Shown here: piece after piece, positions 4,329 through 51,659 of the stretch
Layout of the letters: each line of letters opens with the position of its first letter
How positions within the stretch are numbered: position 1 is the stretch's first letter
Origin: Candidatus Kerfeldbacteria bacterium
GTDB lineage: Bacteria; Patescibacteriota; Patescibacteriia; UBA10025; JAHIVO01
DNA: 64,000 nucleotides
Assembly: GCA_047946875.1 (NCBI GenBank)
Contig: CP181398.1
Span: 1,169,329 to 1,233,328 of the forward strand
Direction of reading: 5' to 3'
Translations under genes and position numbers: made by a program
The notes under the pieces: model-generated
Databases searched by the model: none
The model's input: only the letters and a program-made list of their open reading frames with translations
Told to the model about the DNA's origin: nothing

Positions 4329-4454
4329 TTAGATTTTACCTTTTCTCTTTTTTGCCTTCTCTTCAAGCATAATCCTCTTTGCTTCGAGTCTTTTTGCTGT
4401 TTTGTGAGACTTAGTCTTTTTTTTCTTACCTACTCCCGTAGCTCTTTTTGCCAT
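4329..4454 (-). CDS. possible small lysine-rich basic protein (41 aa)
   Basis: Own translation: MAKRATGVGKKKKTKSHKTAKRLEAKRIMLEEKAKKRKGKI. No clear SD and no recognised family. Confidence 0.3.
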   Translation of the reverse strand: MAKRATGVGKKKKTKSHKTAKRLEAKRIMLEEKAKKRKGKI

Positions 4455-4522
4455 ATATATTTTATTTAATAATATTACTTATCGTATATCATTGGGTGAA
4501 ATAATGCAATAAAAAAGTTTTA

Positions 4523-4581
4523 TTAGATTATAGGTATATGATAAACTTAATGTAGGAGGTTAAGTTATTAATAGTATAAAT
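4523..4581 (+). promoter_or_regulatory. conserved promoter/5'UTR module, copy a
   Basis: ttagattataggtatatgataaacttaatgtaggaggttaagttattaatagtataaat then ATG. Contains an extended -10 (TGATAAACT). Nearly identical modules at 5148-5206 and 9041-9099. Confidence 0.6.
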
Positions 4582-4902
4582 ATGGAAGAACAAAACCAAA
4601 AACAACCAACTCAGCAGCAATCAGTACTGCAGTCCGAGGAACACAGAAAAGGAAAAATTAATTTTTCACAAGCATTCTCCAAGTTAAGTAAATATTCTAA
4701 AAGATTTTTTATTGTTTGTGAATTATTACTTGCTATAGTTGTAATATTATACTTAATGTATGAATATACCCCCTCCTGGTCTGGTTGGGTTGAATTTGTT
4801 CTGCTGTCGTATTTTTTATTTATTGTAAATATTATATATTTAATAGCAATTATTATTTTTCTCTTAACACATAAAAATTATAATGGATTGTGTGTGTGGT
4901 AG
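4582..4902 (+). CDS. small integral membrane protein (106 aa); N-terminus MEEQNQK paralogous to 5520-5951
   Basis: ORF track. Hydrophobic C-terminal half. Preceded by the conserved promoter module. Confidence 0.55.
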   Translation: MEEQNQKQPTQQQSVLQSEEHRKGKINFSQAFSKLSKYSKRFFIVCELLLAIVVILYLMYEYTPSWSGWVEFVLLSYFLFIVNIIYLIAIIIFLLTHKNYNGLCVW

Positions 4903-5951: not shown

Positions 5952-6127
5952 AACAAAACTTTTTAAAGATTGGAAATTTTGGGTGTGGGTAATAATTGTC
6001 CTATTGGTTGCTGCTTTTATTATATATAGTAGTTGATAATTATAATGCCACAAAAGGATTTAATTAAAGTATATTAAAAAATTCTGCTTATCGGCAGGCA
6101 GGCACCTTAAGAGGCGGGATTTTTTGA

Positions 6128-6245
6128 TTGGGGTCGGATAGCCCGTCCGCCACAGCTTCGCCGTAGGCGTGCCGGGCGGGCTGTTTACCCCGTCCTTCAT
6201 GGAAGGCGGGGTAAATTTTAGAACTTATTTATTAAGAGGTGTTTT
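6128..6245. repeat. copy of the 11291-11335 repeat (tRNA-His 3'-end-like) carrying two GC-hairpin insertions
   Basis: ttggggtcggatagc + [39-nt GC palindrome 6143-6181] + tgttta + [~29-nt hairpin 6188-6216, ccccgtccttcatggaaggcgggg] + ttagaacttattta. The uninterrupted version at 11291-11335 reads ctggggtcggatagctgtttatcttagaacttattta. Confidence 0.7.
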
Positions 6246-6250
6246 ATTAT

Positions 6251-7048
6251 TTATTTTTTCAATTCAACTACATCAAGTGTGCGATTATAAATCGATGCTG
6301 TCTGGCCGGCATCAACATTCCAGCCAACCTGAAAAGTATGTGATCCAGCAGTAACATCTACCAAGGCATTGAAGGCCATGTTAAATGGACCGCCGGAAGA
6401 AGCGGCAGTTCCTCTTCTAATGGTGTGATCAACTATTGTCCCATCAACAATTAAAAAAGTCCTGGCTGAAACAAAGTCATTATTAATACTAAATACCCCA
6501 CTGAAATTAATTAATACGGTGCTGGCGCCAGTTGTAACAACAATAGTTTCATCTAAAATATCATAATTTGGGGAATTTTGTGTTGTTGTATCCGTAGTTG
6601 TTCCATAAGCTTCACTCGTTTGAGTTATGGCGCCGGCTGCAATATTGGTAGATGTTACTATCCCTGTCCCCATCAAACTTCCCACCGTCAATGATCCGAT
6701 TACTTCCATATTATCATTTACGATAAATGGCATGGTATCACTTGTCCCAGCTGTAGCACCACGCCAAACACGACCGTCTATTCTTACATTATCTCCAAAG
6801 GTCACAGGGTTATCAACACTATTGGTTGTTGTATCGTTTACAATAGAGCCGTTAAAGTAAGTTACTCCTCCAATATCCTGTTCCCCGATCATAATTGAAC
6901 GCATTTTCATAGTTCCATCAACTTGATAAATATCTCCTTCCGGTCCAAATTGGGAGGTGACATTGTGTGTGGCCGCAGCATTTACAATCCCCACCGTTAA
7001 TGCGATGGAAATGATCACTACCAACGATGTTATTAGTTTTTTGTTCAT
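6251..7048 (-). CDS. secreted fibre-like protein, paralogue A (conserved N-terminal half, C1q/TNF-like-looking C-terminal head)
   Basis: ORF track, 265 aa. Signal peptide ending VNA-A. About the first 130 aa align with 15173-16045 and 16160-17077. The C-terminus is unrelated to theirs. Confidence 0.8.
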   Translation of the reverse strand: MNKKLITSLVVIISIALTVGIVNAAATHNVTSQFGPEGDIYQVDGTMKMRSIMIGEQDIGGVTYFNGSIVNDTTTNSVDNPVTFGDNVRIDGRVWRGATAGTSDTMPFIVNDNMEVIGSLTVGSLMGTGIVTSTNIAAGAITQTSEAYGTTTDTTTQNSPNYDILDETIVVTTGASTVLINFSGVFSINNDFVSARTFLIVDGTIVDHTIRRGTAASSGGPFNMAFNALVDVTAGSHTFQVGWNVDAGQTASIYNRTLDVVELKK

Positions 7049-11078: not shown

Positions 11079-11160
11079 AGTTATAAATTTAATATTCAAT
11101 AATTTAAGTATACCAAAAACGACCCTAATAACATATCTATAGGGTAACTTTTATAAAATG

Positions 11161-11335
11161 GGTGGTTAGACCTGCCTACCGGCAGGCAGGGGGAATTACG
11201 CGTCGCCTATTGGCTCGCTTCTACCCGTCCGATTCCCATTTTATCCCATATCAAAAAAAGTTCCACCATATAAATATGATAAAACTTTTTCTGGGGTCGG
11301 ATAGCTGTTTATCTTAGAACTTATTTAATGGATGG
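11161..11335. repeat. direct repeat of the tRNA-His downstream flank plus last ~12 nt of tRNA-His
   Basis: Aligns by eye (~80 percent) with 11720-11905, including ...catatcaaaaaaa...tttttctggggtNgg. Contains the GC hairpin cctgcctaccggcaggcagg (11171-11190). Confidence 0.7.
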
Positions 11336-11719: not shown

Positions 11720-11892
11720 GTTTTTAGAAAAGCCGGCAGGGAGAATTTCGCGTCGCCAAAGGCTCCTTGTCCTGGGTAGCGACCCCGCGGTGCGGGGTCG
11801 ACTCTTGCCTTCGTCTCGCTTCTATCCGTTCGATTCCTATTTTGCCCCATATCAAAAAAATTTCATCATCTACAAGGGATAATAAAATTTTT
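11720..11892. repeat. tRNA-His downstream flank (master copy of the 11161-11305 repeat) with GC-hairpin insertion
   Basis: Carries an extra segment containing cgaccccgcggtgcggggtcg (11780-11800) that is absent from the 11161 copy. Track ORF 11664-11882 is probably spurious. Confidence 0.65.
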
Positions 11893-11968
11893 CTGGGGTG
11901 GCTAGAGGGAATCGAACCCTCATAGCTGGTTCCACAAACCAGTGCACTAACCGTTGTGCTATAGCCAC
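11893..11968 (-). tRNA. tRNA-His (GTG), CCA encoded, G-1 present
   Basis: rc: G-GTGGCTA TA GCAC AACGGTTA GTGC A CTGGT TTGTGGA ACCAG CTAT GAGGG TTCGATT CCCTC TAGCCAC C CCA. Confidence 0.9.
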
Positions 11969-12112
11969 CACGTTGATTTTACATTCCAGGTTACGTATCT
12001 CCGCATTCGCGAATTTACTCCACCTTTCATGTAAATCTGCCTTTCCTCACACATCTGTGCTCATTTTATTGCGCTCCTGATGTGTTCGGGATGTTTAATG
12101 TAAAAAATCAGT
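11969..12112 (-). ncRNA. tRNA-proximal structured spacer element, divergent copy L1 (tRNA-Leu to tRNA-His)
   Basis: GAGGAAAGG purine tract. P1 GATTTACAT / ATGTAAAATC. GGTGGAG...ACGTAACC core. Ends AACG before the tRNA. Confidence 0.45.
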
Positions 12113-12198
12113 TGGTGCGGACGGAGGGACTTGAACCCTCACGCACAAAAGTGCCTAGGCCCTCAACCTAGTGCGTATACCAATTCCGCCACGTCCGC
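12113..12198 (-). tRNA. tRNA-Leu (GAG), long variable arm, CCA encoded
   Basis: rc: GCGGACG...CTAGG TTGAGGG CCTAG...GGGTTCAAGTCCC...CGTCCGC A CCA. Confidence 0.9.
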
Positions 12199-12216
12199 CG
12201 GCCATTTATGTTAAAA

Positions 12217-12561
12217 CTATTTTTTAACTTTAGTCTCTTTTAGTCGTTTCTTATAATCTTTTAAGAAGTATAGTTTTGCTCGACGTACTTTAGCTTTTTT
12301 AACAATCTCAATTTTTGAGATTGAAGGAGAATTCAAAGGAAATATTTTCTCTACACCAATACCTTCGGAAATCTTTCTTACAGTAATAGTGGAAGTTAGA
12401 CCTTTACCACCGCGTCGTGATAGGACCATTCCTTCAAATTTTTGGATACGCTCTTTTTCACCTTCTTTAATTTTTTGATGAACAATAACGGTGTTACCAG
12501 CACTGATATCTGGCAAATCTTGTTTTACTTTTGATGTATTCAGTGAATATGCAGTTACCAT
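12217..12561 (-). CDS. rplS: 50S ribosomal protein L19
   Basis: ORF track. VRRAKLYFLKD and overall L19 pattern. Confidence 0.95.
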   Translation of the reverse strand: MVTAYSLNTSKVKQDLPDISAGNTVIVHQKIKEGEKERIQKFEGMVLSRRGGKGLTSTITVRKISEGIGVEKIFPLNSPSISKIEIVKKAKVRRAKLYFLKDYKKRLKETKVKK

Positions 12562-12626
12562 AGTTTCTATTTATCTAATAATTATAATTTAAGTAGTTAT
12601 AATAATAGCGATTACAAGCTTTATTG

Positions 12627-13610
12627 TCAAGACTTTTTGAGGTTATTTAGAATATTTTGAAGTTTTTCTGGTAAAGGGAGGGTAAATTCTACCCATTTAC
12701 CATCCAAATCTGTAAAACCTAAGTATTGGGCATGAAGAAAAATTCTACTCATCTTTATTTTGGTTTTAAGTTTTTTTGGTTTATAAACTAGATCCCCAAC
12801 TATTGGTAGGCCATAAGCATTAAGGTGAACGCGGATTTGATGAGTTCGACCGGTTTTTGGCATAATCCTTAATAATGTATAGTTGCCAATATTTTCCAAT
12901 ACTTCAAATCCAGTAATTGATTTACGTCCCCTCTCTTCATGTTCTGGGACAGCTGCCATTTTGAAATCTTTTGTTTCACTACGACTAATATTAAAATTAA
13001 TTTCATCTTCATTCTTTTGAGGTGTGCCATATACTAATGTGATATATTCTTTTTTTATAGTTCTTTCTTTGAATTGGGATTTCAGATGGTCGAACATGTC
13101 TTGTGTCTTTGCTACTACTATCAAGCCAGATACTTCCCGATCAAGCCTATGTACGATACCGGGGCGGATTGGGTTCTCTCCAACTTTTTTTATTTTGGGA
13201 TATTTTTTTACTAGTTGATCAGCAAGAGTTATTTCATTGGTACCATCTGCTTCATGTATCAATAGTCCAGCTGGTTTGTTTACTATTAAATAGTTTTCCG
13301 TTTCAGTAATGATATTTAATTTATGTTGAGCAGGTTTAAATATATTAGTTATTTTTTTTAAAGAGGAAGTAACAAAATTTTCTTGGGAAGTTGTGTTAAT
13401 ATCATTTGTTGTCGTAACTGGTTTATTATCTGTGATAATAATATCACCTTCTTTTAAGAATTTATGGACTACTGCTGACTTATTATTAACCAGGATTGTT
13501 TCATTTTTGATAAGTTTTTGAATTTGGGATCTTGTGATGTCTAATTTTCCTGTCAAAAATTTATCAAGTCTTTTGCCAGCATCATCTTTTGTGATTGAAT
13601 ATCTATTCAT
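12627..13610 (-). CDS. rluD: RluA/RluD-family 23S rRNA pseudouridine synthase with N-terminal S4 domain
   Basis: HRLDREVSGLIVVAKT catalytic motif. S4-like N-terminus. Confidence 0.85.
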   Translation of the reverse strand: MNRYSITKDDAGKRLDKFLTGKLDITRSQIQKLIKNETILVNNKSAVVHKFLKEGDIIITDNKPVTTTNDINTTSQENFVTSSLKKITNIFKPAQHKLNIITETENYLIVNKPAGLLIHEADGTNEITLADQLVKKYPKIKKVGENPIRPGIVHRLDREVSGLIVVAKTQDMFDHLKSQFKERTIKKEYITLVYGTPQKNEDEINFNISRSETKDFKMAAVPEHEERGRKSITGFEVLENIGNYTLLRIMPKTGRTHQIRVHLNAYGLPIVGDLVYKPKKLKTKIKMSRIFLHAQYLGFTDLDGKWVEFTLPLPEKLQNILNNLKKS

Positions 13611-15057
13611 ATTTTTTTATATAATCAAAGGATTGTTTTTTAGTTTTAATATTACCTTTGAGTTGTTCTTCTCTTAGAGCATTTTTAATCTTACCAATTT
13701 TGGCTCCAGGTTTTATTTTGAGTGCTTTCATTATTTCATTACCGTTAATTAATTCTTTTGGTAGTACTTTTTTGTTTCTAGAAATTTTTTCTAATGCTTC
13801 TACTTGTTTAACAATTTTGTTGAAATCTTTAAAATTTGGTTGGCCATCTTTTGGTATAGTAGCTTGTATATCAGCGAAAGTTAGTTTGAGTAAATTATGT
13901 CCAGGAACATTCTCATTAAAAAAGTATTTTTCGAGTGTAGTTTTTTTCATGGGAGATTTTTTTGTGTGGGTAGAGATCATATGTTTGCTACATAGCCACA
14001 CAATATTTTCTGCTTTGATTCCAGCGCTGGATAATTTTAATCTTTTTATAATTTCGTCGGTTATTTTTGCACCAACTGTATCGTGATTATTAAATCTAAG
14101 TCTATCAGACCTCTCTATAGTATAGGGTTTACCAATATCATGAAAAAGGGTAGCAAATACTAATTCAGCATCAAGTTTTTCATTTTTATATTTTGTAGTA
14201 AATTTTTTTGAACTTAGATTTTGTAAACATAATAAAGTGTGTTTCCATACATCACCTTCAGAATGGAAATTCCTTGGTTGGGGACATTTCTTCATTTTTA
14301 ACAATTCTGGCATTAGCGCTTTGGTTAAACCGCTCTTGTCATAAAGTTCAAAAGCTAAGGCAGGATTAGCGACGAAAGCTTTAGTCATTTCTTTTGCAAT
14401 AGTTTCTCTAGGAACTAAAAATTCTCCTTTTACTTTTTTATTAATTTGAGGAGTTAATTTTTTTATTGCTGACCAAGTAGCATTATCGATTTTGAAATTT
14501 AGTTGGCAAGCAAAACGAATAGCTCTTAATATTCTTGAGTAGTCTTCTTTGAACCGTTCAGTTGCTAATCCAACAGTTTTAATGTTTTTCTTTTTTAAAT
14601 CTTTGAGCCCATTAAATAAATCAATAATTTCTTTTTTATTAATGTCGTAAGCTAAAGCATTGATCGTGAAGTCACGCCTTTTTAAATCTTCTTCGATTGG
14701 CAGATTTGGATCTGATTGGATATCAAAATCTTTATAGCCACCAGTTAGGAAAGCGTGTTCAGTACGAGGTAGGGCAATGTCGAGAGGTTCTTTTAGAGTA
14801 GAGTTTTTGGGCATAAATTTAAGTACGCCGAATTTTTTACCTACTATATCTACCCAGCCAAGAGTTTTAAGAAATTTAAGAAGTTTATTGACTGATACAT
14901 TACGTATAACAAAATCATAGTCTTTTGATTCTCGCCCAATAAGACTATCGCGAACAATCCCCCCAATTAAAAAAATTTCGGCTTGTGGAATTTTTTTTTG
15001 AAGATGTTTAATAGAAGAAAGTTCTTTTTTTTGCAATAAAGATGTAATTTGTTTCAT
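13603..15057 (-). CDS. cca: CCA-adding tRNA nucleotidyltransferase with HD domain
   Basis: GGIVRD, RRDFTINA, ERF..RILRAIRF and HD motif LFHDIGKP. Consistent with four tRNAs here lacking an encoded CCA. Confidence 0.9.
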   Translation of the reverse strand: MKQITSLLQKKELSSIKHLQKKIPQAEIFLIGGIVRDSLIGRESKDYDFVIRNVSVNKLLKFLKTLGWVDIVGKKFGVLKFMPKNSTLKEPLDIALPRTEHAFLTGGYKDFDIQSDPNLPIEEDLKRRDFTINALAYDINKKEIIDLFNGLKDLKKKNIKTVGLATERFKEDYSRILRAIRFACQLNFKIDNATWSAIKKLTPQINKKVKGEFLVPRETIAKEMTKAFVANPALAFELYDKSGLTKALMPELLKMKKCPQPRNFHSEGDVWKHTLLCLQNLSSKKFTTKYKNEKLDAELVFATLFHDIGKPYTIERSDRLRFNNHDTVGAKITDEIIKRLKLSSAGIKAENIVWLCSKHMISTHTKKSPMKKTTLEKYFFNENVPGHNLLKLTFADIQATIPKDGQPNFKDFNKIVKQVEALEKISRNKKVLPKELINGNEIMKALKIKPGAKIGKIKNALREEQLKGNIKTKKQSFDYIKKYE

Positions 15058-15172: not shown

Positions 15173-16045
15173 TTAGTATATTGCCAGCATAAATACACCA
15201 TCGGCAGGATTTTCATCTTTATCATGTTCCCAAACTAAAACGGTATTTGGATCAGATGCATGAGGAGCAGCGCCAATTAATCTAATAGCAACAGCACCGC
15301 CTGTACCACTTGGAGTAGCGATGTAAGCTCTAGTTGGTGTACCTGAACCATTATTTACAGCAAAATTGAAAGTTACTTCATATCTACCATTGCCAGTATT
15401 TGTGGCAGCAGTAGCATTATATCCACTAGTTAACGTACCTCCTGAACTAACATAGGCCCATCCTTTTAATGCTCCTTCAGCAGATACGGCCTGGGTGATG
15501 TTACCAGTAGTAGTGACTGTGTCAATACTAAGATCGGCAGTTGAGGATATATCGCTTCCAGTGATGGTTCCATCGACAATTTTAGCTGAGGTAATTGCAT
15601 TATCAGCAATGTCAGCGGTGGCAATTGTAGCATCAGTAATATTGTCAGATGTTACTATCCCAGTACCAAGTAAACTTGCTACTGTTAATGATCCAGTAAC
15701 TTCCATATTGTCATTGACAATAAATGGCATTGAATCTGCAGTACCAGCTGTTGCTCCGCGAAAAACACGTCCATCTATACGGACGTTATCACCAAAAGTA
15801 ACGGGATTGTCTACTCCGGCGTTTGTTGTGGTATTGATTATAGATCCATTGAAGTAGGTTACTCCACCTACACCCTGTTCACCGATCATCGTTGATCTCA
15901 TTTTCATTGTCCCATCTACTTGAAATATGTCTCCTTCTGGTCCAAATTGTGAAGTGACATTGTGACTAGTTGCAGCATTGACTATCCCAGCTGTCAAAGC
16001 AATAGAAGCAACTACCACTACGAGGGTTAAAAGCTTTTTTTTCAT
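15173..16045 (-). CDS. secreted fibre-like protein, paralogue B
   Basis: ORF track, 290 aa. Signal peptide VNA-A. The N-terminal ~145 aa are almost identical to paralogue C. I-x-D-x-x-I-T repeat stalk. Unique C-terminal domain. Confidence 0.8.
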   Translation of the reverse strand: MKKKLLTLVVVVASIALTAGIVNAATSHNVTSQFGPEGDIFQVDGTMKMRSTMIGEQGVGGVTYFNGSIINTTTNAGVDNPVTFGDNVRIDGRVFRGATAGTADSMPFIVNDNMEVTGSLTVASLLGTGIVTSDNITDATIATADIADNAITSAKIVDGTITGSDISSTADLSIDTVTTTGNITQAVSAEGALKGWAYVSSGGTLTSGYNATAATNTGNGRYEVTFNFAVNNGSGTPTRAYIATPSGTGGAVAIRLIGAAPHASDPNTVLVWEHDKDENPADGVFMLAIY

Positions 16046-16159: not shown

Positions 16160-17077
16160 TTACATTTCGTAAATTATAAAACTAAATGAAGTTTGGCCAG
16201 CTGACCCGGTAGATTCGTCTACAAAATCAACAGTAAAATGATCATTTACGCTATTTGTAGCCGGAATAAATCCAGAATTTATCGGTGTAACAACCGCTAC
16301 ATGAGTAAGATAAGAATAAGTTACCCCAGTAATAGTAATTTCATATTGATTACTACCACCGTCCCAGGAACAAGCTATGTTACTGGTACCACCTCTATCA
16401 GAGCCATCTGAATTACAATAACCATAGGCAATAGGCAGATTGGCACCGCCCGTACCATTGATCTTGTCAGGTGTTATAGCGTCATCAGCTACATCTGCTG
16501 TAGCAATAGTTCCGTCTGTAATTTTTGAACTAATTATTGAGTTACTGGCTAAATCTCCAGATACAATAGTTCCGTCTGTAATTTTAGCTGAGGTAATAGC
16601 ATCATCATCAATTTTTGCAGTTGTAATTACGCTATCAGCTATGTCTGCTGTAGCTATAGTAGCGTCAGTAATATTGTCAGATGTTACTATCCCGGTACCA
16701 AGTAAACTTGCTACTGTTAATGATCCAGTAACTTCCATATTGTCGTTGACGATAAAAGGTTGAGTGTCTCCTGTTCCGGCAGTTGCTCCGCGAAAAACAC
16801 GTCCGTCAATACGAACATTATCACCAAAAGTTACGGGATTGTCTACACCGGAGTTTGTAGTGGCATTGATTATAGATCCATTGAAGTAAGTTACTCCACC
16901 AACACCTTGTTCACCGATCATAACTGATCTCATGTTCATTGTTCCATCTACTTGAAATATGTCTCCTTCTGGTCCAAATTGTGAAGTGACATTGTGACTA
17001 GTTGCTGCGTTGACTATCCCAGCTGTCAAAGCAATAGAAGCAACTACCACTACGAGGGTTAAAAGCTTTTTTTTCAT
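16160..17077 (-). CDS. secreted fibre-like protein, paralogue C
   Basis: ORF track, 305 aa. Longer I-x-D-x-x-I-T repeat stalk. Unique Cys-containing C-terminal domain. Confidence 0.8.
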   Translation of the reverse strand: MKKKLLTLVVVVASIALTAGIVNAATSHNVTSQFGPEGDIFQVDGTMNMRSVMIGEQGVGGVTYFNGSIINATTNSGVDNPVTFGDNVRIDGRVFRGATAGTGDTQPFIVNDNMEVTGSLTVASLLGTGIVTSDNITDATIATADIADSVITTAKIDDDAITSAKITDGTIVSGDLASNSIISSKITDGTIATADVADDAITPDKINGTGGANLPIAYGYCNSDGSDRGGTSNIACSWDGGSNQYEITITGVTYSYLTHVAVVTPINSGFIPATNSVNDHFTVDFVDESTGSAGQTSFSFIIYEM

Positions 17078-18431: not shown

Positions 18432-18575
18432 TGGTGGGACGTAGAGGATTTGAACCTCTGACCGTTTGCTTCCCGCCTTTCGGACGGGACAAGTAAGAGG
18501 CAACTTTATCCCGCTAAGAATTGGCGGGATGCTCTACTTTACCCCGCCTATTAAAGGCGGGGCGAGCTGAGCTAA
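18432..18575 (-). pseudogene. decayed partial tRNA-Lys copy (nt ~8 to CCA) split by three GC hairpins
   Basis: ggtgggacgtagaggatttgaacctctgaccgtttgctt[cccgcctttcggacgggac]aagtaagaggcaact[ttatcccgctaagaattggcgggat]gctctac[tttaccccgcctattaaaggcggggc]gagctgagctaa, compared with the intact gene at 18843-18919. The 5' acceptor strand is missing. Confidence 0.8.
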
Positions 18576-18803
18576 TTTATTTTTATATTGATGATTTTTC
18601 TTTTTTAGCCACAATTCGTGCCTCCTTGCCTCTTTATAAGAATGGTGTTTTTTAAAATATACAAGTTTAAATAGTTTATATTTTGAACTGCTGTTGAGTT
18701 TTCCTTGGTTGTGTTCGTGAATACGTTTCCAAGGTTGTATAGAAATACCACAATAATATTTATTAAACTTATTACTATATATTAAGTACGTATAAACATT
18801 CAT
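18534..18803 (-). CDS. GIY-YIG nuclease superfamily protein (89 aa)
   Basis: YTYLIYSNKFNKYYCGIS...RIHEHNQG fits the GIY...YIG...R..H/E pattern of small URI-domain proteins. The C-terminal LAQLAPPLIGGVK is encoded by the dead tRNA-Lys copy plus a GC hairpin. Confidence 0.7.
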   Translation of the reverse strand: MNVYTYLIYSNKFNKYYCGISIQPWKRIHEHNQGKLNSSSKYKLFKLVYFKKHHSYKEARRHELWLKKKNHQYKNKLAQLAPPLIGGVK

Positions 18804-18919: not shown

Positions 18920-19041
18920 GCGTCGATATAATATTTTTGGTTACGTTTTCAGCTTTCGCTGCTAATTCCACCGCTCATATCATTTCTCCTTTCCTCGCAG
19001 AACGGTATCGTTCAGCTCGGTATTATTTATTATAGGAATGG
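18920..19041 (-). ncRNA. tRNA-proximal structured spacer element, copy L2 (before tRNA-Lys)
   Basis: rc: ...GAACGATACCGTTC..GAGGAAAGGAGAAATGATATGAGCGGTGGAATTAGCAGCGAAAGCTGAAAACGTAACCAAAAATATTATATCGACG then the tRNA. Confidence 0.55.
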
Positions 19042-19202
19042 TACCCTCGAGAGCCCCGCTTTGAGCGGGATCTTCGAGAATCTCCGCCCAAGGCGGATGC
19101 GCCTATGGCGCAGAACCTTAAGTTTAAAAGATTGTTTATCCACGGCTCCCGCCCGCAACGCTAAAGCGTAGCTTTGGCGGGCGTGGTAGAAGGCCGTTGT
19201 TC
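19042..19202 (-). pseudogene. old tRNA-Arg 3' portion (nt 22 to 3' end) broken by about four insertions
   Basis: Matching blocks taccctcgaga / ttcgaga / aacct / atccacgg / tagaaggccgttgttc are separated by GC hairpins (19053-19072, 19080-19113, 19146-19186) and an AT-rich 19-mer (19119-19137). Track ORF 19030-19251 is spurious. Confidence 0.75.
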
Positions 19203-19311: not shown

Positions 19312-19362
19312 TATCCGTTGTCAGGCAGAGCCTGATCCGGCTTTGCCGGAAACTACAAGGGC
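19312..19362 (-). pseudogene. old tRNA-Arg 5' portion (nt 1-21) with a 30-nt GC hairpin insertion
   Basis: tatccgttg[tcaggcagagcctgatccggctttgccgga]aactacaagggc. Directly abuts spacer element L3, as intact tRNAs do elsewhere. Confidence 0.75.
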
Positions 19363-19478
19363 GCGTCTAAATAATATTTTTGGTTACGTTTTCAGCTTTC
19401 GCTGCTAACTCCACCATTCATATCATTTCTCCTTTCCCCGCAGAACGGTATCGTTCAGCTCAATGTTATTAAATAATA
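19363..19478 (-). ncRNA. tRNA-proximal structured spacer element, copy L3
   Basis: Near-identical to L2: ...GGGGAAAGGAGAAATGATATGAATGGTGGAGTTAGCAGCGAAAGCTGAAAACGTAACCAAAAATATTATTTAGACGC. Confidence 0.55.
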
Positions 19479-27826: not shown

Positions 27827-29224
27827 ATGGCAAAAGAAAATGAGATAGTATTAGCAGTTAAGCAAATTTGTGAAGAAAAAAATATATCATTTGAATCAGT
27901 CATCGAAACAATTGAAGCTGCGTTGGCAGTGGCTTATCGTAAGGATTTTGGTGAAAAAAATCAAAATATTAAAGTTGAATTTGATATTGAAACTGCCGAT
28001 GCTAGTGTTTTTGATGTAAAAAAGGTAGTGACAGATGAAATATTTGAAGTATATGAAAAATTAAGAGAAGAAAAATTAGCAGAAGAAGCTAAAGAGGCTG
28101 CTGATGCTGAAAAAGGAATTGTTAAAAAGGAAAAAAAACCTACTAAAGTAGAAAAAAAAGAGGAAATAGATGATGAGGAAGAAGTAGAGAGATTTAATCC
28201 AAAAACTGATATTTCTTTATCAGAGGCCAAAAAAATTAAGAAAAGTATAAAGTTAGAGGGGGAAATCAAAACCGCTCTTACACCACCAGCTGCATATGGA
28301 AGAATGGCCGCTCAAACTGCTAAGCAAGTAATTGTTCAACGTTTACGTGAAGCAGAACGTGAGAATATTTATAAAGAGTTTAAAGATAAAGAAGGTGACG
28401 TAATAAACGGGACTATCCAGAGGGTAGAAGGAAGAATGGTGTTGGTTGATCTCGGTCCGACTACGGCATTATTACCTCCTCCAGAGCAAGTACCAATGGA
28501 AAGATATAATTCTGGTCAAAGATTTAAATTTTATGTAGTTGCAGTTAATGAGACTCCAAAAGGTCCAGAGATAATTTTGTCTAGATCTCATGTTGAAATG
28601 GTAAAAAAATTATTTATGTTGGAAGTACCAGAAATTGGTAACGGTTCAGTAGAAATAAAATCTATTGCAAGAGAAGCAGGCTCTCGTACTAAGTTGGCTG
28701 TTTTTACAACTCAGAAAAATATCGATCCAGTTGGTTCATGTGTTGGTCAACGTGGTGCAAGAGTACAAACTATAATTTCTGAGATTGGTGGGGAGAAAAT
28801 TGATATTGTTGAGTGGGATGAAGATCCTGTTAAATTTATTACAAATTCTCTATCCCCAGCTAAAGTATTAGGTGTTAATACAAATGAAGAAGAAAAAACT
28901 GCCAAAGTAGAAGTAAAAGAAGATCAATTATCTTTGGCTATTGGTAAAGCGGGTCAGAATGTAAGATTGTCTGCCAAATTGACTGGTTGGAAGATTGACA
29001 TAATTTCAGAAGCTGGTATACCGGCCATACCAAAGGAAGAATTAGATGATAAAGATGAAGATATTGAAAGTGAAGAAGAGATTGAAAAAAAAGAGGAGCC
29101 AAAAGATCTTGCAGCAAGCCTGCCTACCGGACAGGCAAGTTCAGAAGAAGTAAAAGAGGAAGAGAAGAAGGATGTTAAGGAAGAAGAGGTTGTAGAAGAA
29201 AAAAAGGAGGATAAAGAAAAATAA
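27827..29224 (+). CDS. nusA: transcription termination/antitermination factor NusA with acidic C-terminal tail
   Basis: S1 and tandem KH domains. E/K-rich insert and tail. Confidence 0.95.
   Translation: MAKENEIVLAVKQICEEKNISFESVIETIEAALAVAYRKDFGEKNQNIKVEFDIETADASVFDVKKVVTDEIFEVYEKLREEKLAEEAKEAADAEKGIVKKEKKPTKVEKKEEIDDEEEVERFNPKTDISLSEAKKIKKSIKLEGEIKTALTPPAAYGRMAAQTAKQVIVQRLREAERENIYKEFKDKEGDVINGTIQRVEGRMVLVDLGPTTALLPPPEQVPMERYNSGQRFKFYVVAVNETPKGPEIILSRSHVEMVKKLFMLEVPEIGNGSVEIKSIAREAGSRTKLAVFTTQKNIDPVGSCVGQRGARVQTIISEIGGEKIDIVEWDEDPVKFITNSLSPAKVLGVNTNEEEKTAKVEVKEDQLSLAIGKAGQNVRLSAKLTGWKIDIISEAGIPAIPKEELDDKDEDIESEEEIEKKEEPKDLAASLPTGQASSEEVKEEEKKDVKEEEVVEEKKEDKEK
29118..29136. repeat. GC-hairpin element (family cctgcctaccggcaggcagg) in frame inside the nusA tail
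   Basis: gcctgcctaccggacaggc encodes SLPTGQA within an otherwise E/K-rich tail. Related copies at 11171-11190, 48521-40 and 6084-6104. Confidence 0.6.
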
Positions 29225-29247: not shown

Positions 29248-29280
29248 TTCCGGCAGAGCCGGATCAGGCTCTGCCTGAAA
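29248..29280. repeat. 34-nt GC palindromic element (family tttccggcagagccggatcaggctctgcctgaaa)
   Basis: 9-bp stem GGCAGAGCC/GGCTCTGCC. Inverted copy at 34085-34120. Third copy inside the old tRNA-Arg fragment (19321-19350). Confidence 0.7.
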
Positions 29281-34084: not shown

Positions 34085-34120
34085 TTTCAGGTAGAGCCTG
34101 ATCCGGCTATGCCGGAAATT
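34085..34120. repeat. 34-nt GC palindromic element, inverted copy
   Basis: tttcaggtagagcctgatccggctatgccggaaa equals the reverse complement of 29248-29280 with two substitutions. Confidence 0.7.
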
Positions 34121-45318: not shown

Positions 45319-45377
45319 TGCCGCGAGCGGCCCCGCCTTGGCGGGATTTCGTCACTCCGTGTCTCAAGACTCTTAAT
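45319..45377 (-). pseudogene. decayed tRNA-Leu(TAA) 3' fragment with GC hairpin
   Basis: tgccgcgagcgg[ccccgccttggcgggat]ttcgtcactccgtgtctcaagactc versus the intact tgccgcgggtgggacttgaacccacaaggtcttgcaacc. Confidence 0.45.
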
Positions 45378-45989: not shown

Positions 45990-46001
45990 TGGAGCGGCAA
46001 A
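45990..46001 (-). repeat. 12-nt duplicate of the tRNA-Gly(GCC) 3' end next to a GC hairpin
   Basis: tggagcggcaaa is identical to 46083-46094. Followed by ttccgctgagcgggat. Confidence 0.4.
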
Positions 46002-46082
46002 TTCCGCTGAGCGGGATGAGCTTTTAGTATTAAGTGAGATTAATTAATAATCTTAGAATAAAATTTATAAGTTAATTTGTAA

Positions 46083-46159: not shown

Positions 46160-46273
46160 GCGTCGAAATAGTTTTTCTGGCTCCGTTTCCAATCAAGATT
46201 GAAAACTGCACCATTTACACTATTTCTCCTTCTCCTCGTCCCGAACTGCGGGACTCGGTAAAGATTAATTTAG
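46160..46273 (-). ncRNA. tRNA-proximal structured spacer element, copy L4 (fills the tRNA-Cys to tRNA-Gly gap)
   Basis: rc: ..GTCCCGCAGTTCGGGAC GAGGAGAAGGA GAAATAGT GTAAAT GGTGCAGTTTTCAATCTTGATTGGAAACGGAGCC AGAAAA ACTATTTC GACGC. Confidence 0.6.
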
Positions 46274-47268: not shown

Positions 47269-47374
47269 GCGCGTCGAAATAGTATTTCTGGTTCCGTTTC
47301 CAATTAAGATTGAAAACTGCACCCTATGCACTATTTCTCCTTTTCTCGTCCCGCACTGCGGGACTCGGTTGAGA
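47269..47374 (-). ncRNA. tRNA-proximal structured spacer element, copy L5
   Basis: rc: GTCCCGCAGTGCGGGAC GAGAAAAGGA GAAATAGT GCATAG GGTGCAGTTTTCAATCTTAATTGGAAACGGAACC AGAAAT ACTATTTC GACGCGC. Confidence 0.6.
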
Positions 47375-48511: not shown

Positions 48512-48549
48512 AAACTGCGCCTGCCTGCCGGTAGGCAGGCTACACCCCG
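48512..48549 (-). pseudogene. old tRNA-Pro 5' portion (nt 1-17) split by a 20-nt GC hairpin
   Basis: aaactgcgc[ctgcctgccggtaggcaggc]tacaccccg versus the intact ccaactgcgctacaccccg. Lies 25 nt after tRNA-Phe. Confidence 0.75.
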
Positions 48550-48646: not shown

Positions 48647-48758
48647 GCGTCGAAATGATACTTCAGGTTCCGTTTCCAACTGAAGTTGAAAACTGCACTC
48701 TTTATATCATTTCTCCTCTCCTCAATGAAGCTACGCTTCCTTTCGGTATAATTCTTAA
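48647..48758 (-). ncRNA. tRNA-proximal structured spacer element, copy L6 (fills the tRNA-Ile to tRNA-Phe gap)
   Basis: rc: ..GGAAGCGTAGCTTC..GAGGAGAGGA GAAATGATA TAAAGA GTGCAGTTTTCAACTTCAGTTGGAAACGGAACC TGAAG TATCATTTC GACGC. Confidence 0.6.
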
Positions 48759-48835: not shown

Positions 48836-48882
48836 ATAAATTGTTAATTGTTATTTGTAAATGTTTTAAATATATCTGTATT

Positions 48883-48989
48883 CTAGGAGTTGATCAAATG
48901 TCGCGCTCCCCGCCCGTACCGAACGGGTACGTTCGGGCGGGTAACTTCATCCCGCCTGTTCTAGGCGGGGCAAGCTGAGCTAATCGCCC
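48883..48989 (-). pseudogene. decayed tRNA-Ile copy (5' third plus T-loop remnant) with two GC hairpins and an internal deletion
   Basis: ctaggagttga..gtcgcgctc[48908-48942 hairpin]aac[48946-48971 hairpin]aagctgagctaatcgccc versus the intact gene. The anticodon arm is missing. Confidence 0.7.
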
Positions 48990-50975: not shown

Positions 50976-51659
50976 TCAAGCTTTTTTACGTATTCTAGAA
51001 TTATTAGTTTTCCAGGCCAAAATATCATTATGATTGCCACTTAATAGTACTTTTGGCACTTTTTGGCCATTAAAATTTTCAGGTCTGGTGTATTGTGGAT
51101 ATTCAATATATTTTTCGTCTTTTGTAAATGTTTCATCTTTTGAAGATTGGTCATCTCCAAGTACTCCAGGTAATAATCTAGTCGTTGCATCAATAATTGT
51201 CATGGCTGGTAATTCTCCTCCGGTCAAAACATAATCTCCTATGGAAATTTCTTCATCAATGTATTTTTTTATTCTTGCATCGTAACCTTCATAACGTCCA
51301 GCAATCAAAATTAGCTGATCATACTTTGTTAATGACTTTGCTTTTTTTTGATCAAACTTTTTTCCTTTAGGAGTTAGTAAGATGATTCTAGATTTCCCGC
51401 CAGAGGCGGGTCCGCCTTTGGAGGATTTTAATCGTTTAATTGACTTTAAACATTTGTATAGAGGTTCTATTTTTAATAACATTCCTGGACCACCACCATA
51501 AGGTTTGTCATCAACAGACTTATGCTTGTCAGTAGCGAAGTTTCTGAAATTATGGATGATAATGTTTATCTTTTTATTTTTTATTGCACGCTTAATAATA
51601 CTTTCTTTAAAGTATGATTCAAAAATATCTGGAAAAATTGTGAGAATGTCGAATTGCAT
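50976..51659 (-). CDS. trmD: tRNA (guanine37-N1)-methyltransferase
   Basis: GGGPGM, AGRYEGYDARI and GGELPA motifs. Confidence 0.95.
   Translation of the reverse strand: MQFDILTIFPDIFESYFKESIIKRAIKNKKINIIIHNFRNFATDKHKSVDDKPYGGGPGMLLKIEPLYKCLKSIKRLKSSKGGPASGGKSRIILLTPKGKKFDQKKAKSLTKYDQLILIAGRYEGYDARIKKYIDEEISIGDYVLTGGELPAMTIIDATTRLLPGVLGDDQSSKDETFTKDEKYIEYPQYTRPENFNGQKVPKVLLSGNHNDILAWKTNNSRIRKKA
51396..51425. repeat. GC-hairpin element in frame inside trmD (interdomain linker)
   Basis: cccgccagaggcgggtccgcctttggagg encodes SKGGPASGG on the minus strand. CCCGCC/GGCGGG stem. Confidence 0.55.

What the first reader, a model, noticed from the sequence alone, without database searches (positions are those of the whole stretch)
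6128..6245. Filled-site versus empty-site pair shows that short GC-rich hairpins are insertion elements
11291-11335 reads ctggggtcggatagc-tgtttat-cttagaacttattta. The copy at 6128-6245 is the same sequence with a 39-nt GC palindrome (6143-6181, GCCCGtCCG...CGGgCGGGC) and a ~29-nt hairpin (6188-6216, CCCCGtCCTT...AAGGcGGGG) inserted. The tRNA-His flank repeat 11720-11892 likewise carries gaccccgcggtgcggggtc, which is absent from its sister 11161-11305. I can group at least three families by eye. Family one is tttccggcagagccggatcaggctctgcctgaaa (29248, 34085 inverted, 19321). Family two is cctgcctaccggcaggcagg (11171, 48521, 29118, 6084). Family three is (A/G)TCCCGC-loop-GCGGGA(T/C) / CCCCGCC-loop-GGCGGGG (18495, 18540, 19053, 45333, 46005, 48946, 50814, 51396, 6188). 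In an AT-rich genome these 20-40-nt GC palindromes behave like miniature mobile or templated insertions. They resemble Rickettsia palindromic elements or REP/MITE-like repeats, but they are much shorter and are concentrated in dead tDNA.
Basis: partly seen in the sequence, partly recalled or inferred. Interest (0 to 1): 0.75.

Follow-up and report, generated by a model that had tools for sequence, protein, structure and literature searches.

The report
Tiny GC hairpins are mobile insertions
In this AT-rich Candidate Phyla Radiation (CPR) bacterium, short 20-40-base GC-rich hairpins are real insertions, found in dead tRNA gene copies, spacers and one protein gene, and at least two of the hairpin types recur at hundreds of unrelated sites in uncultivated bacteria, which makes them among the smallest mobile DNA elements seen in bacteria.

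Summary
Window 6074-6231 equals 11151-11327 plus a 39-nt hairpin (6141-6179) and a 28-nt hairpin (6187-6214). Both copies are dead 3' fragments of tRNA-His. The live tRNA-His is empty at both sites, so the hairpins are insertions.

The window comes from a Ca. Kerfeldbacteria genome. Its live tRNA genes are flanked by partial dead copies carrying 15 or more such hairpins at recurrent cloverleaf positions.

One type is a 30-nt double hairpin, TCCGCCnnnGGCGGA twice. It sits in the T-loop of dead tRNA-Arg and in frame in trmD. The trmD site is cleanly empty in a syntenic relative, with no target duplication.

A metagenome scan found this 30-mer in at least 120 contigs (GC 28-69%) with unrelated flanks. 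About 60% of copies lie in frame in ORFs, including AlaRS, RecG, UvrC and acyl-CoA dehydrogenase, usually read as SAKGGSASGG. Dehalococcoidia orthologues at least 90% identical show two independent insertion sites, 9-nt remnants, and empty sites.

The 20-nt palindrome CCTGCCTRCCGGCAGGCAGG is similarly dispersed, including viral contigs.

No mobilising enzyme was identified and no published description was found. The closest analogues are Rickettsia palindromic elements, REPs and mitochondrial GC clusters. One sub-claim, the hairpin at 11780-11800, is better read as a deletion in the sister copy.

The parts
6141..6179 (+). 39-nt GC-rich hairpin: an outer CCCGYCC/GGRCGGG stem with a nested inner hairpin. 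It is inserted in a dead tRNA-His 3' fragment and is absent from the copy at 11292-11310 and from live tRNA-His.
6187..6214 (+). 28-nt hairpin CCCCGTCC-loop-GGCGGGG followed by a TAA tail (family three type), inserted 7 nt further along the same dead fragment.
6129..6140 (+). Dead tRNA-His 3'-end core TGGGGTCGGATA (reverse complement of ..TATCCGACCCCA). This is the filled copy.
6084..6102 (+). Degenerate family-two palindrome ctgcttatcggcaggcagg, part of the same repeated unit.
11292..11310 (+). Dead tRNA-His 3' fragment TGGGGTCGGATAGCTGTTT. This is the empty copy, with a 20-nt T-arm deletion relative to the live gene.
11171..11190 (+). Family-two 20-nt palindrome CCTGCCTACCGGCAGGCAGG.
11720..11892 (-). 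Repeated unit downstream of tRNA-His. It is a tRNA 3'-end fragment whose T-loop holds a conserved insert of about 100 nt and a variable hairpin (11780-11800). Its sister copy 11161-11305 has lost 51 nt.
11894..11968 (-). Live tRNA-His(GTG), the outgroup that fixes the direction of the changes.
18432..18575 (-). Dead tRNA-Lys copy (tRNA positions 7-77). It carries three inserted hairpins: 18538-18562 in the D-loop, 18506-18530 at position 25/26, and 18472-18494 in the anticodon loop.
18534..18803 (-). GIY-YIG nuclease ORF lying between live tRNA-Lys and its dead copy. Its C-terminus is encoded by the dead D-arm and the first hairpin.
19042..19202 (-). Dead tRNA-Arg 3' copy. It carries a 39-nt hairpin (19148-19186, anticodon loop), the 30-nt double hairpin TGCGCCATAGGCGCA.TCCGCCTTGGGCGGA (19083-19112, in the T-loop after GGTTC) and a 24-nt hairpin (19054-19077, after GATTC).
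19321..19350 (-). Family-one 30-nt double hairpin (TCCGGCAAAGCCGGA.TCAGGCTCTGCCTGA), inserted after GTAGTT in a dead tRNA-Arg 5' fragment (19312-19362).
29249..29278 (+). Family-one double hairpin in the nusA-downstream spacer, with flanks ..aatt|..|aatt.
34087..34116 (+). Family-one double hairpin, inverted copy, directly after a stop codon.
29118..29136 (+). Family-two-like palindrome inside the acidic C-terminal tail of NusA, encoding ..SLPTGQA... No orthologue comparison was made.
45331..45347 (-). Hairpin ATCCCGCCAAGGCGGGG abutting a dead 3'-end fragment of tRNA-Leu(TAA).
46002..46016 (-). Hairpin TCCCGCTCAGCGGAA abutting a dead 3'-end fragment of tRNA-Gly(GCC) (45990-46001).
48521..48540 (-). 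Family-two palindrome inserted between positions 9 and 10 of a dead tRNA-Pro 5' fragment (48513-48549).
48882..48989 (-). Dead tRNA-Ile 5' copy with two D-loop hairpins. The 25-nt hairpin (48946-48970) is absent from the corresponding copy in L087. The 33-nt hairpin (48909-48941) is shared with L087.
51396..51425 (-). 30-nt double hairpin TCCTCCAAAGGCGGA.CCCGCCTCTGGCGGG in frame in the trmD inter-domain linker (SSKGGPASGG). The site is cleanly empty in L087 and in most close orthologues.

Best explanation
The GC-rich hairpins are copies of very small (20-42 nt), non-autonomous, self-complementary insertion elements.

Shown:
- They are added precisely to pre-existing sequence, with no target-site duplication.
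- They are added in either orientation.
- They land preferentially at a T-rich|A-rich junction. For the 30-mer, position -2 is T in 83% of copies and position +2 is A in 86%.
- In tDNA they land at a few recurrent cloverleaf positions, mostly loops or loop/stem borders.
- They also land inside the loops of other hairpins, which gives nested hairpins.
- The same element sequences recur at hundreds of unrelated loci in many uncultivated genomes, both CPR and Dehalococcoidia.
- Copies persist where an insertion is harmless: dead tRNA gene copies, spacers and flexible protein linkers. The 30-mer has no stop codon in any frame and is a multiple of three.
- Copies decay to 9-nt remnants.

Inferred:
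- Copies are made by a trans-acting enzyme that recognises folded single-stranded DNA hairpins and joins them without staggered cuts. This would be in the manner of HUH/Y1 enzymes (IS200/IS605 TnpA, RAYT) or another structure-specific nuclease or recombinase, encoded elsewhere in the genome or on a mobile element.
- Their concentration in dead tDNA reflects both target preference (tDNA folds into stem-loops) and the lack of purifying selection there.
- The dead tDNA itself comes from a separate process: elements that invade tRNA genes while bringing a replacement copy. These include the GIY-YIG cassettes here and in L086/L087, and a serine-recombinase element at tRNA-His in L081.
For: Direction of change:
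- Each dead tRNA copy aligns collinearly with its live neighbour, with hairpins as clean extra blocks.
- Live tRNA-His is empty at both flagged sites.

Orthologous filled and empty sites:
- trmD has exactly 30 nt extra in the window, L086 and L089. It has none in syntenic L087, and the flanking run of 7 A is unchanged.
- The insert is present in 3-4 of 14 close TrmD orthologues, in a patchy pattern.
- The 25-nt D-loop hairpin in the window's dead tRNA-Ile is absent from the corresponding L087 copy, although both share the next hairpin.

Same element in unrelated contexts:
- The 30-mer is in the trmD linker and in the T-loops of dead tRNA-Arg (window) and dead tRNA-Ile (L086, L087).
- It is in at least 120 metagenome contigs, all with different flanks.
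- 77 of 123 copies lie inside long ORFs, in all six frames.
- The host proteins have unrelated Pfam domains.
- TrmD linkers were hit at three different positions in different genomes.
- Dehalococcoidia acyl-CoA dehydrogenases at least 90% identical carry the 10-aa insert at two different sites, SGG remnants at both, or nothing.
- Family two occurs in 63 copies, including 47 stretches of viral contigs against about 0.2 expected by chance, my own estimate from an assumed IMG/VR size of about 6e10 nt. Several of these copies are again in tRNA D-loops or variable loops.

Recurrent target positions in different tRNAs and genomes:
- GTAGTT|CA in Arg (window, L083) and Gly (L086).
- CAGCTYG| in Lys and Ile (window) and Pro (L087).
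- GGTTC|RA in Arg and Ile.
- GATTC| in Arg (window) and Cys (L086).

Enrichment:
- GC-rich 15+15 double hairpins number 5 in the 64-kb window and 6 in 58 kb of close relatives, against 1 in 1.2 Mb of distant genomes. The scan's sixth window hit, at 1995, is an AT-rich chance match.
- Hairpin density is 5.3 per kb near tRNAs and 0.24 per kb in coding DNA.
Against: - No mobilising enzyme was found. The window holds only a GIY-YIG nuclease and one Xer-like tyrosine recombinase.
- The one inverted pair of hairpin arrays I examined (L140) encloses housekeeping genes, not a transposase.
- The symmetric T..A flanks fit microhomology-guided copying as well as they fit an enzyme's target preference.
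- Known HUH elements need longer ends than 30 nt, and REPs carry GTAG or CGTC tags that are absent here.
- The two hairpins at the flagged locus are single-copy in all data held, so their family membership rests on form, not on sequence identity.
- Some hairpins are old and shared between genomes: the anticodon-loop hairpin of dead tRNA-Lys (window versus L083) and the 33-nt D-loop hairpin (window versus L087). Activity is therefore not shown to be recent in this genome. Two assemblies of the same genome show no polymorphism over 10.7 kb.
- The metagenome pattern fixed the stem bases, so stem conservation among those 123 copies comes from how they were found.
Confidence: 0.6

Rival explanations
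1. There is no dedicated enzyme. The hairpins spread by template switching or microhomology-mediated copying during replication or repair, and by gene conversion between paralogous tDNA fragments. Palindromes promote fork stalling and strand switching, and the T..A flanks are the microhomologies used.
For: The flank signal is symmetric, short and partly shared by donor and target. The same hairpin type sits at the same D-loop position in dead copies of different tRNAs that share the TAGCTCAG motif, in each case with an extra or changed base (CAGcTTG, CAGcTcG) that looks co-converted. Dead and live copies are kept identical over 40 nt, as in tRNA-Lys, which shows ongoing conversion. Yeast mitochondrial GC clusters are reported to spread partly by recombination at their flanks (PMC4478555).
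Against: Insertions into trmD, AlaRS, RecG, UvrC and acyl-CoA dehydrogenase have no homology with any donor beyond 1-3 bases. A nearly identical 30-mer in genomes of 28-69% GC needs transfer between lineages plus an efficient copying step. The insert boundaries are exact to the base in every case.
Confidence: 0.2
2. The hairpins are by-products of double-strand-break repair at sites cut by homing endonucleases that attack tRNA genes. These would be the small GIY-YIG nucleases found in the tDNA graveyards. The break is patched with a hairpin oligonucleotide or copied from another hairpin.
For: A GIY-YIG ORF lies between live and dead tRNA-Lys in the window. GIY-YIG ORFs lie between tRNA-Pro fragments in L086 and L087. 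Insertion positions recur at conserved tRNA motifs. Intron-encoded endonucleases have been proposed as mobilisers of mitochondrial GC clusters.
Against: Most copies of the 30-mer are in protein genes or spacers with no tDNA or GIY-YIG gene nearby. Targets outside tDNA share only a loose tT|aA preference.
Confidence: 0.1
3. The hairpins are functional structures selected in place, such as terminators, RNA-processing or stabilising signals, or barriers that stop recombination between live and dead tRNA copies. They would not be mobile DNA.
For: Family one sits directly after stop codons (29249, 34087). Orthologous positions keep a double hairpin while both stems change: TCCGGC/TCAGGC in the window against TCCCCC/TCACCC in L083. 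Shared hairpins keep their stems and change their loops. Dead tDNA carrying hairpins persists between genomes whose TrmD proteins are only 78% identical.
Against: Terminator-like sites are not enriched: 15 found against 11.3 +/- 3.4 expected, and only one of the hairpins scores. Most lack a T-run. A local function cannot explain identical 30-mers in frame in unrelated proteins of different phyla. Function acquired after insertion is not excluded.
Confidence: 0.05
4. The hairpin-bearing copies are ancestral and the hairpin-free copies are deletions. This is the alternative the reader proposed as a refutation.
For: It is true for one sub-case. The 11161-11305 copy has lost 51 nt, including the hairpin at 11780-11800. 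Remnants (SGG, 9 nt) show that elements do get partly deleted.
Against: Functional tRNAs, whose structure is universal, are the empty state at every tDNA site. Most TrmD and acyl-CoA dehydrogenase orthologues are empty, and the filled ones are scattered on the tree.
Confidence: 0.03

Closest known systems
Rickettsia palindromic elements (RPE)
   Same: Both are palindromic repeats that insert in frame into unrelated protein genes as well as non-coding DNA, add a conserved peptide, and have no known transposase (review PMC10969869).
   Different: RPEs are about 100-150 bp and confined to Rickettsia. The elements here are 20-42 nt, are built of one or two minimal hairpins, and at least two types occur across CPR, Dehalococcoidia and viral contigs.
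GC clusters of yeast mitochondria (e.g. GC42), double-hairpin elements of chytrid mitochondria, repetitive hairpin elements of sponge mitochondria, and byp elements
   Same: All are short GC-rich palindromes scattered in an AT-rich genome. They show presence/absence polymorphism, merging and nesting of units, loops that vary more than stems, occasional location in genes, and an unknown mobilisation mechanism (PMC4478555; PMC2800124, listed; the byp elements and their properties are from my own knowledge, Lang et al. 2014, not read).
   Different: Those are organellar. GC42-type clusters are flanked by AG or ACT direct repeats, whereas no duplication is seen here. The elements here are in free-standing bacterial chromosomes of several phyla.
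REP / REPIN elements mobilised by RAYT
   Same: Both are 20-40-nt imperfect palindromes, often paired or clustered, as in the four-hairpin array in L140. REPs are thought to be handled as folded single-stranded DNA.
   Different: REPs are extragenic and carry a GTAG or CGTC tag (PMC3733652, abstract listed). Here about 60% of 30-mer copies are inside ORFs and the flanks are tT|aA with no tag. No RAYT was seen, and the genome could not be searched.
IS200/IS605-derived palindrome-associated elements (PATEs)
   Same: Both show insertion without target duplication, hairpins at both ends and, by inference, a single-strand mechanism.
   Different: Known elements need sub-terminal hairpins plus guide sequences totalling well over 60 nt, and they insert 3' of a fixed tetra- or pentanucleotide (my knowledge of IS608 and ISDra2). 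Here the whole element is 30 nt or less and the target is only a loose palindromic T..A.

Membership tests
REP/REPIN (RAYT-mobilised) | Short imperfect palindrome, 20-40 nt | tested here: met
   Inserts are 20-42 nt and all fold as hairpins.
REP/REPIN (RAYT-mobilised) | Conserved GTAG or CGTC tetranucleotide at one end | tested here: not met
   The flank profile of 123 copies is tTt|..|aAa. No such tag occurs inside or beside the element.
REP/REPIN (RAYT-mobilised) | Extragenic location | tested here: not met
   77 of 123 copies of the 30-mer lie inside long ORFs. Pfam domains flank the inserts.
REP/REPIN (RAYT-mobilised) | A RAYT gene in the same genome, typically flanked by REPs | not testable with these tools
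   Only 64 kb of the 1.31-Mb genome is held. None of the 10 window ORFs run through Pfam is a Y1/HUH protein. Most of the window's ORFs were not scanned.
Rickettsia palindromic elements | In-frame insertion into unrelated protein genes, adding a conserved peptide | tested here: met
   The peptide SAKGGSASGG and related forms occur in TrmD, AlaRS, RecG, UvrC, acyl-CoA dehydrogenase, a radical SAM protein, a solute-binding protein (SBP) and HsdS.
Rickettsia palindromic elements | Length of about 100-150 bp and sequence families specific to Rickettsia | tested here: not met
   The elements are 20-42 nt. The hosts are Patescibacteria and Dehalococcoidia.
Classical MITE (cut-down DNA transposon) | Terminal inverted repeats plus a target-site duplication | tested here: not met
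   Exact junctions against live tRNAs (GGTTC|AACTCC, GTAGTT|CAACGG) and against empty trmD (a run of 7 A in both states) show no duplication.
Mitochondrial GC clusters | GC-rich palindromes dispersed in an AT-rich genome with presence/absence polymorphism | tested here: met
   The window is 33% GC. Hairpins number 33 against 3-8 in shuffled sequence. Filled and empty sites are seen.
Mitochondrial GC clusters | Flanking AG or ACT direct repeats | tested here: not met
   No flanking direct repeats are present.
IS200/IS605-type single-strand transposition | No target duplication, and insertion 3' of a fixed short target | tested here: inconclusive
   The absence of duplication is met. The target is only a loose symmetric T(-2)/A(+2) preference.
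Archaeal-type tRNA introns (bulge-helix-bulge) | The insert lies in an otherwise complete, functional tRNA gene | tested here: not met
   The host copies lack acceptor-stem halves or T-arms, and an intact copy of the same tRNA lies next to them. The one exception seen is L241, a tRNA-Met with the palindrome in its variable loop.
Intrinsic terminators | GC hairpin followed by a T-run at a gene end | tested here: not met
   The scan found 15 sites against 11.3 +/- 3.4 expected, and only 18507-18531 among the hairpins scores. Ordinary terminators do exist elsewhere in the window, for example at 16117, 35440 and 51926.

The most novel reading that the evidence does not exclude
A previously undescribed class of ultra-small (20-30 nt) mobile DNA. 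It consists of self-complementary double hairpins that insert to the base without target duplication at T|A junctions and in stem-loop loops. They are tolerated in frame in essential proteins and are shared almost unchanged between CPR bacteria, Dehalococcoidia and viral contigs. This would imply an unknown, broadly distributed mobilisation mechanism and gene flow between these uncultivated lineages. A stronger version: the hairpins, together with tRNA-invading cassettes, drive a continuing cycle of tRNA gene replacement and decay in CPR genomes.
Probability: 0.45. Interest if true: 0.88.

Novelty: new variant of a known kind. Interest (0 to 1): 0.78.

Why it matters
If confirmed, these would be among the smallest mobile elements known in cellular genomes. 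They would also be the first of this kind described for the Candidate Phyla Radiation.

- **Annotation.** The elements change protein sequences, adding 10-residue linker inserts in TrmD, AlaRS, RecG and UvrC. They break up tRNA gene copies in ways that tRNA finders miss, and they can mislead alignment and phylogeny.
- **Markers of relatedness.** Filled and empty sites are clean markers of relatedness and of horizontal exchange among uncultivated groundwater lineages.
- **Mechanism.** Insertion is precise to the base, leaves no duplication and depends on structure, with only 30 nt of sequence. That points to an enzyme or repair route not yet characterised, which makes the old question of how mitochondrial GC clusters and Rickettsia palindromic elements move testable in a much larger data set.
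- **Genome streamlining.** The tRNA graveyards show that very small, streamlined genomes can retain decaying gene copies for long periods.

Tried and rejected
- **Known RNA families.** Rfam gathering and E-value scans of the flagged locus, the tRNA-His flank and the L083 repeats gave nothing credible.
- **Terminators.** Terminator-like sites are not enriched.
- **Distant relatives.** TrmD loci from genome contigs, at 63% identity or less, lacked synteny and dead tDNA, so they gave no orthologous comparison. They served only as a negative control.
- **Exact-protein look-up** of the gene next to the locus found nothing.
- **A second assembly of the same genome (L085)** differs only by an N gap, so there is no polymorphism.
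- **L140 as a possible composite transposon** bounded by inverted hairpin arrays. The interior encodes DnaB, CysRS and RecR, so this was rejected.
- **Phage vector for the 30-mer.** There was 1 hit in IMG/VR, none in INPHARED phages, and only weak partial matches (E of 0.9 or more) in 7.3 Gb of plasmids from cultivated bacteria. The 30-mer therefore looks confined to uncultivated lineages. Family two, by contrast, is present in 47 stretches of viral contigs.
- **CRISPR-repeat resemblance** of hairpin+ATAAA. There are no arrays and no Rfam support, so it was dropped.
- **tRNA introns.** Rejected because the host copies are truncated.
- **Codon selection as the cause of the TCN loop preference.** Rejected because non-ORF copies show it too.
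- **Literature.** Seven full-text searches, including one for the element and peptide sequences themselves, found no description.
- **A malformed Pfam call** returned an error.
Full report
**Setting**

The window is 33% GC. It carries a bacterial 16S rRNA gene and 11 tRNA genes, all on the minus strand. Its TrmD protein is identical to one on a 1.31-Mb NCBI contig named Candidatus Kerfeldbacteria. The nearest species-level genomes in the GTDB set, from Portnoybacteria and other Patescibacteria, reach only 63% TrmD identity or less. The flagged locus, 6037-6250, lies between two convergent ORFs.

**The observation**

A local alignment with cheap gap extension shows that 6074-6231 is the same sequence as 11151-11327, with 71 matches and 7 mismatches. 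The score is 82, against a shuffle maximum of 47. Two blocks are found only in the first copy: 39 nt at 6141-6179 and 28 nt at 6187-6214. As single-stranded DNA the region folds into exactly these two hairpins, with z = -5.2.

The shared core, TGGGGTCGGATA|GCTGTTT, is the plus-strand image of the 3' part of tRNA-His. The live gene (11894-11968) reads TGGGGTGG-ctagagggaatcgaaccctc-ATAGCTGGTT. Both copies are therefore dead tRNA-His fragments that have lost the T-arm. The live gene is uninterrupted at both positions, so the 39-nt and 28-nt blocks are insertions, not deletions in the other copy.

The copy at 11161-11305 lacks 51 nt, not just the hairpin. The missing block includes a motif (CCAGGACAA) that is conserved in four of five copies of this unit in two genomes. 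That difference is a deletion.

**Dead tRNA genes carry most of the hairpins**

Read on the minus strand, almost every live tRNA is flanked by partial copies of itself. Alignment of each live tRNA to its surroundings gives clean pictures.

- The dead tRNA-Lys copy (18575-18432) covers tRNA positions 7-77. Its last 40 nt are identical to the live gene. It carries three extra blocks of 25, 25 and 23 nt: in the D-loop, between positions 25 and 26, and in the anticodon loop.
- Dead tRNA-Arg carries a 30-nt block after GTAGTT in a 5' fragment.
- In the 3' fragment, dead tRNA-Arg carries blocks of 39, 30 and 24 nt: in the anticodon loop, in the T-loop after GGTTC, and after GATTC.
- Dead tRNA-Ile carries 25-nt and 33-nt blocks in the D-loop.
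- Dead tRNA-Pro carries the 20-nt family-two palindrome between positions 9 and 10.

Every block is a GC-rich hairpin. There are 33 GC-rich hairpins in the window against 3-8 in locally shuffled sequence. Their density is 5.3 per kb within 350 nt of tRNA genes, 1.5 per kb in other spacers (several of those are ordinary terminators) and 0.24 per kb in coding DNA.

**Relatives show the same thing, with filled and empty sites**

Through TrmD and L19 homologues I fetched syntenic contigs.

- L086 has 78% TrmD identity to the window.
- L087 and L083 come from one MAG, also at 78% TrmD identity.
- L081 is 82% identical to the window at the nucleotide level.

The 16S-tRNA cluster is collinear in L086 and L087, and both are full of dead tRNA-Ile, tRNA-Phe, tRNA-Pro, tRNA-Cys and tRNA-Gly copies with hairpins.

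Some hairpins are shared, and so are old:
- the 33-nt D-loop hairpin of dead tRNA-Ile, in the window and L087;
- the anticodon-loop hairpin of dead tRNA-Lys, in the window and L083, where the stems are kept and the loop differs.

Others differ between genomes:
- The window's 25-nt D-loop hairpin in dead tRNA-Ile is absent from the L087 copy, which reads AGTTGGTTA there, like a live tRNA.
- At the site GTAGTT|CAACG of dead tRNA-Arg, the window has TCCGGC../TCAGGC.. while L083 has TCCCCC../TCACCC...
- After the T-loop of the same dead copy, the window has a 24-nt hairpin where L083 has the family-two palindrome.

Insertion positions recur in different tRNAs and genomes. These are position 12|13, the D-loop, 25|26, the anticodon loop at 36-38, the T-loop at 56|57, and 61|62.

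**The 30-nt double hairpin**

The hairpin inside trmD (51396-51425) is an exact 30-nt addition. The window reads ..ttaaaa|TCCTCCAAAGGCGGACCCGCCTCTGGCGGG|aaatct. L086 has the same insert with two substitutions. L089 has TCCGCCCGAGGCGGATCCGCCATGGGCGGA. L087 reads ..ataaaa|aaatca, with the A-run the same length, so there is no target duplication.

Among 14 close TrmD orthologues the 10-residue insert is present in three, partial in one and absent from the rest. The absent group includes the closest orthologue (81% identity) and the sisters of the L089 protein.

The element is two tandem 15-nt hairpins. The same 30-mer (TGCGCCAWAGGCGCA.TCCGCCTYTGGCGGA) sits in the T-loops of dead tRNA-Arg in the window and of dead tRNA-Ile in L086 and L087. 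Family one is another 30-nt double hairpin. GC-rich 15+15 double hairpins number 5 in the 64-kb window (the scan's sixth hit, at 1995, is an AT-rich chance match), 6 in 58 kb of close relatives, and 1 in 1.2 Mb of distant genomes. That single distant copy is in another TrmD linker.

**Distribution beyond this genome**

The 123 distinct copies have the consensus TCCGCCAAAGGCGGATCCGCCTCNGGCGGA and completely unrelated flanks. The host contigs span 28-69% GC, with a median of 43%.

Seventy-seven copies lie inside long ORFs, in all six frames:

| Reading | Copies |
|---|---|
| SAKGGSASGG | 44 |
| Reverse reading SARGGSAFGG | 19 |
| PPKADPPLAE-type | 12 |
| Arginine-rich | 2 |

The element has no stop codon in any frame. 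The host proteins include TrmD, AlaRS, RecG, UvrC, acyl-CoA dehydrogenase, a radical SAM enzyme, a solute-binding protein and HsdS.

The flanks show a symmetric preference: T at -2 in 102 of 123 copies and A at +2 in 106 of 123. The tRNA and trmD junctions show that these bases belong to the target. The second loop is TCN in ORF and non-ORF copies alike, so this is a property of the element rather than of codon selection.

In Dehalococcoidia acyl-CoA dehydrogenases that are at least 90% identical, the insert occurs after ..ART in three proteins and after ..LEA in another. A three-residue remnant (SGG) occurs at each site in other proteins, and most orthologues have neither. This shows independent insertion and later decay, outside the CPR.

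The 30-mer is absent from phage and plasmid records of cultivated organisms, and it occurs once in IMG/VR.

Family two (CCTGCCTRCCGGCAGGCAGG) turned up unasked in ten of the metagenome contigs. It is the next shared GC-rich k-mer in an unbiased census. It also occurs in 47 stretches of viral contigs against about 0.2 expected by chance, my own estimate from an assumed IMG/VR size of about 6e10 nt. Several copies again sit in tRNA D-loops of truncated tRNA copies. One sits in the variable loop of an otherwise intact tRNA-Met. In L124, a dead tRNA-Val 5' fragment carrying the 30-mer lies just upstream of the live tRNA-Val, the same architecture as in the window.

**What it is and how it probably works**

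The following is shown:
- These are insertions.
- They are precise and leave no duplication.
- They occur in both orientations.
- They favour T|A junctions and the loops of stem-loops, including nesting inside other hairpins, as in the 39-nt and 33-nt forms.
- The same sequences recur at unrelated sites in many genomes.
- Copies survive where they do little harm.

The following is inferred. Copying is done by a trans-acting enzyme that handles folded single-stranded hairpins, of the HUH/Y1 kind or another structure-specific nuclease or recombinase. I found no such gene. The window has only a small GIY-YIG nuclease (18534-18803, lying between live and dead tRNA-Lys) and one Xer-like recombinase.

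Template switching guided by the short T..A microhomologies is the main rival, together with gene conversion among tDNA paralogues. It could account for part of the pattern, especially the same-site hairpins in D-loops.

The dead tDNA itself seems to come from elements that invade tRNA genes while supplying a replacement copy:
- GIY-YIG ORFs are bracketed by tRNA-Pro 5' fragments in L086 and L087.
- In L081, a large serine recombinase gene abuts the 3' end of tRNA-His exactly where similarity to the window ends.

**Comparison with what is known**

| Known element | Same | Different |
|---|---|---|
| Rickettsia palindromic elements | In-frame insertion | About 150 bp |
| REP/REPIN | Size and pairing | Extragenic; tagged with GTAG or CGTC (listing) |
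| Mitochondrial GC clusters and hairpin elements | Size, GC-in-AT setting, nesting | Carry short direct repeats; organellar |

The defining features of classical MITEs (target duplication) and of REPs (tag, extragenic location) were tested and not met. I therefore file these as a new variant of the general kind "small palindromic insertion repeats", not as members of any named family. Seven full-text searches, including one for the sequences themselves, found no description. That is absence from one library, not proof of novelty.

**Limits**

- Only 64 kb of the genome was available.
- The metagenome pattern fixed the stem bases.
- The taxonomy of most host contigs was not determined.
- No read-level data were examined.
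- The two hairpins at the flagged coordinates are single-copy in everything I held.

Noticed in passing
window 18920-19022, 19366-19468, 46160-46262, 47271-47373, 48647-48749 (all minus strand); diverged copy 11969-12090; L086 8548-8650; L081 2553-2674: A conserved, apparently structured leader of about 100 nt lies immediately upstream of tRNA genes. Its blocks are AAAGGAGAAAT .. GGTGNAGTT .. GAAACGNAACC .. TCGACGC|tRNA. RNAalifold gives 18 pairs, 8 of them with compensatory changes. There is no Rfam match. At tRNA-Arg, and at tRNA-Gly in L086, the leader is followed by the dead 5' fragment and then by the live gene.
   Followed up: partly
window 18534-18803 (-); L087 15843-16100; L086 about 4450-4700: Small (85-89 aa) GIY-YIG nuclease ORFs sit inside tRNA graveyards, bracketed by fragments of the same tRNA (Lys in the window, Pro in L086 and L087). 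They look like homing cassettes that bring a replacement tRNA copy. The window ORF ends inside the dead D-arm and the first hairpin.
   Followed up: partly
L081 2737-3609 (relative, 82% nt identity to window 11894-14630): In this close relative a large serine recombinase gene abuts the 3' end of tRNA-His, and similarity to the window stops exactly there. The tRNA-His 3' end is therefore an integration hot spot, which fits the repeated tRNA-His 3' fragments in the window (6129, 11292).
   Followed up: partly
window 11720-11892 and 11161-11305 (-); L083 3440-3585, 3630-3785, 3830-3975: A repeated unit of about 130 nt looks like a tRNA T-arm plus acceptor 3' end (..AATCCCTCACGGTGCACCA). Its T-loop holds a conserved insert of about 100 nt (AGCGAG .. 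GACGAGAG .. CCAGGACAA) with variable hairpins. There are three tandem copies in L083 and two in the window. There is no Rfam match, and its nature is unresolved.
   Followed up: partly
L241 2239-2330 (IMG/VR contig): A tRNA-Met(CAT) that is otherwise intact carries the 20-nt family-two palindrome in its variable loop, and ARAGORN still calls it a tRNA with a long extra arm. The related contig L213 has the same insertion but a broken T-arm.
   Followed up: no
L140 4863-4953 and 12059-12149: A 91-nt inverted repeat pair (97% complementary), made of four tandem 15-nt hairpins, flanks 7.1 kb of housekeeping genes (DnaB with a LAGLIDADG intein, CysRS, RecR). This is a BIME-like hairpin array, not a transposon.
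   Followed up: yes
window 29118-29136 (+), inside nusA 27827-29224: A family-two-like palindrome lies in the acidic C-terminal tail of NusA (..AASLPTGQASS..). It is probably another in-frame insertion, but no orthologue was compared.
   Followed up: no
window 6251-7048, 15173-16045, 16160-17077 (all minus strand): Three paralogous predicted secreted proteins share a nearly identical N-terminus (..IALT[AV]GIVNAA[AT][ST]HNVTSQFGPEGDI..). None of them has a Pfam match. One of them borders the flagged locus.
   Followed up: no
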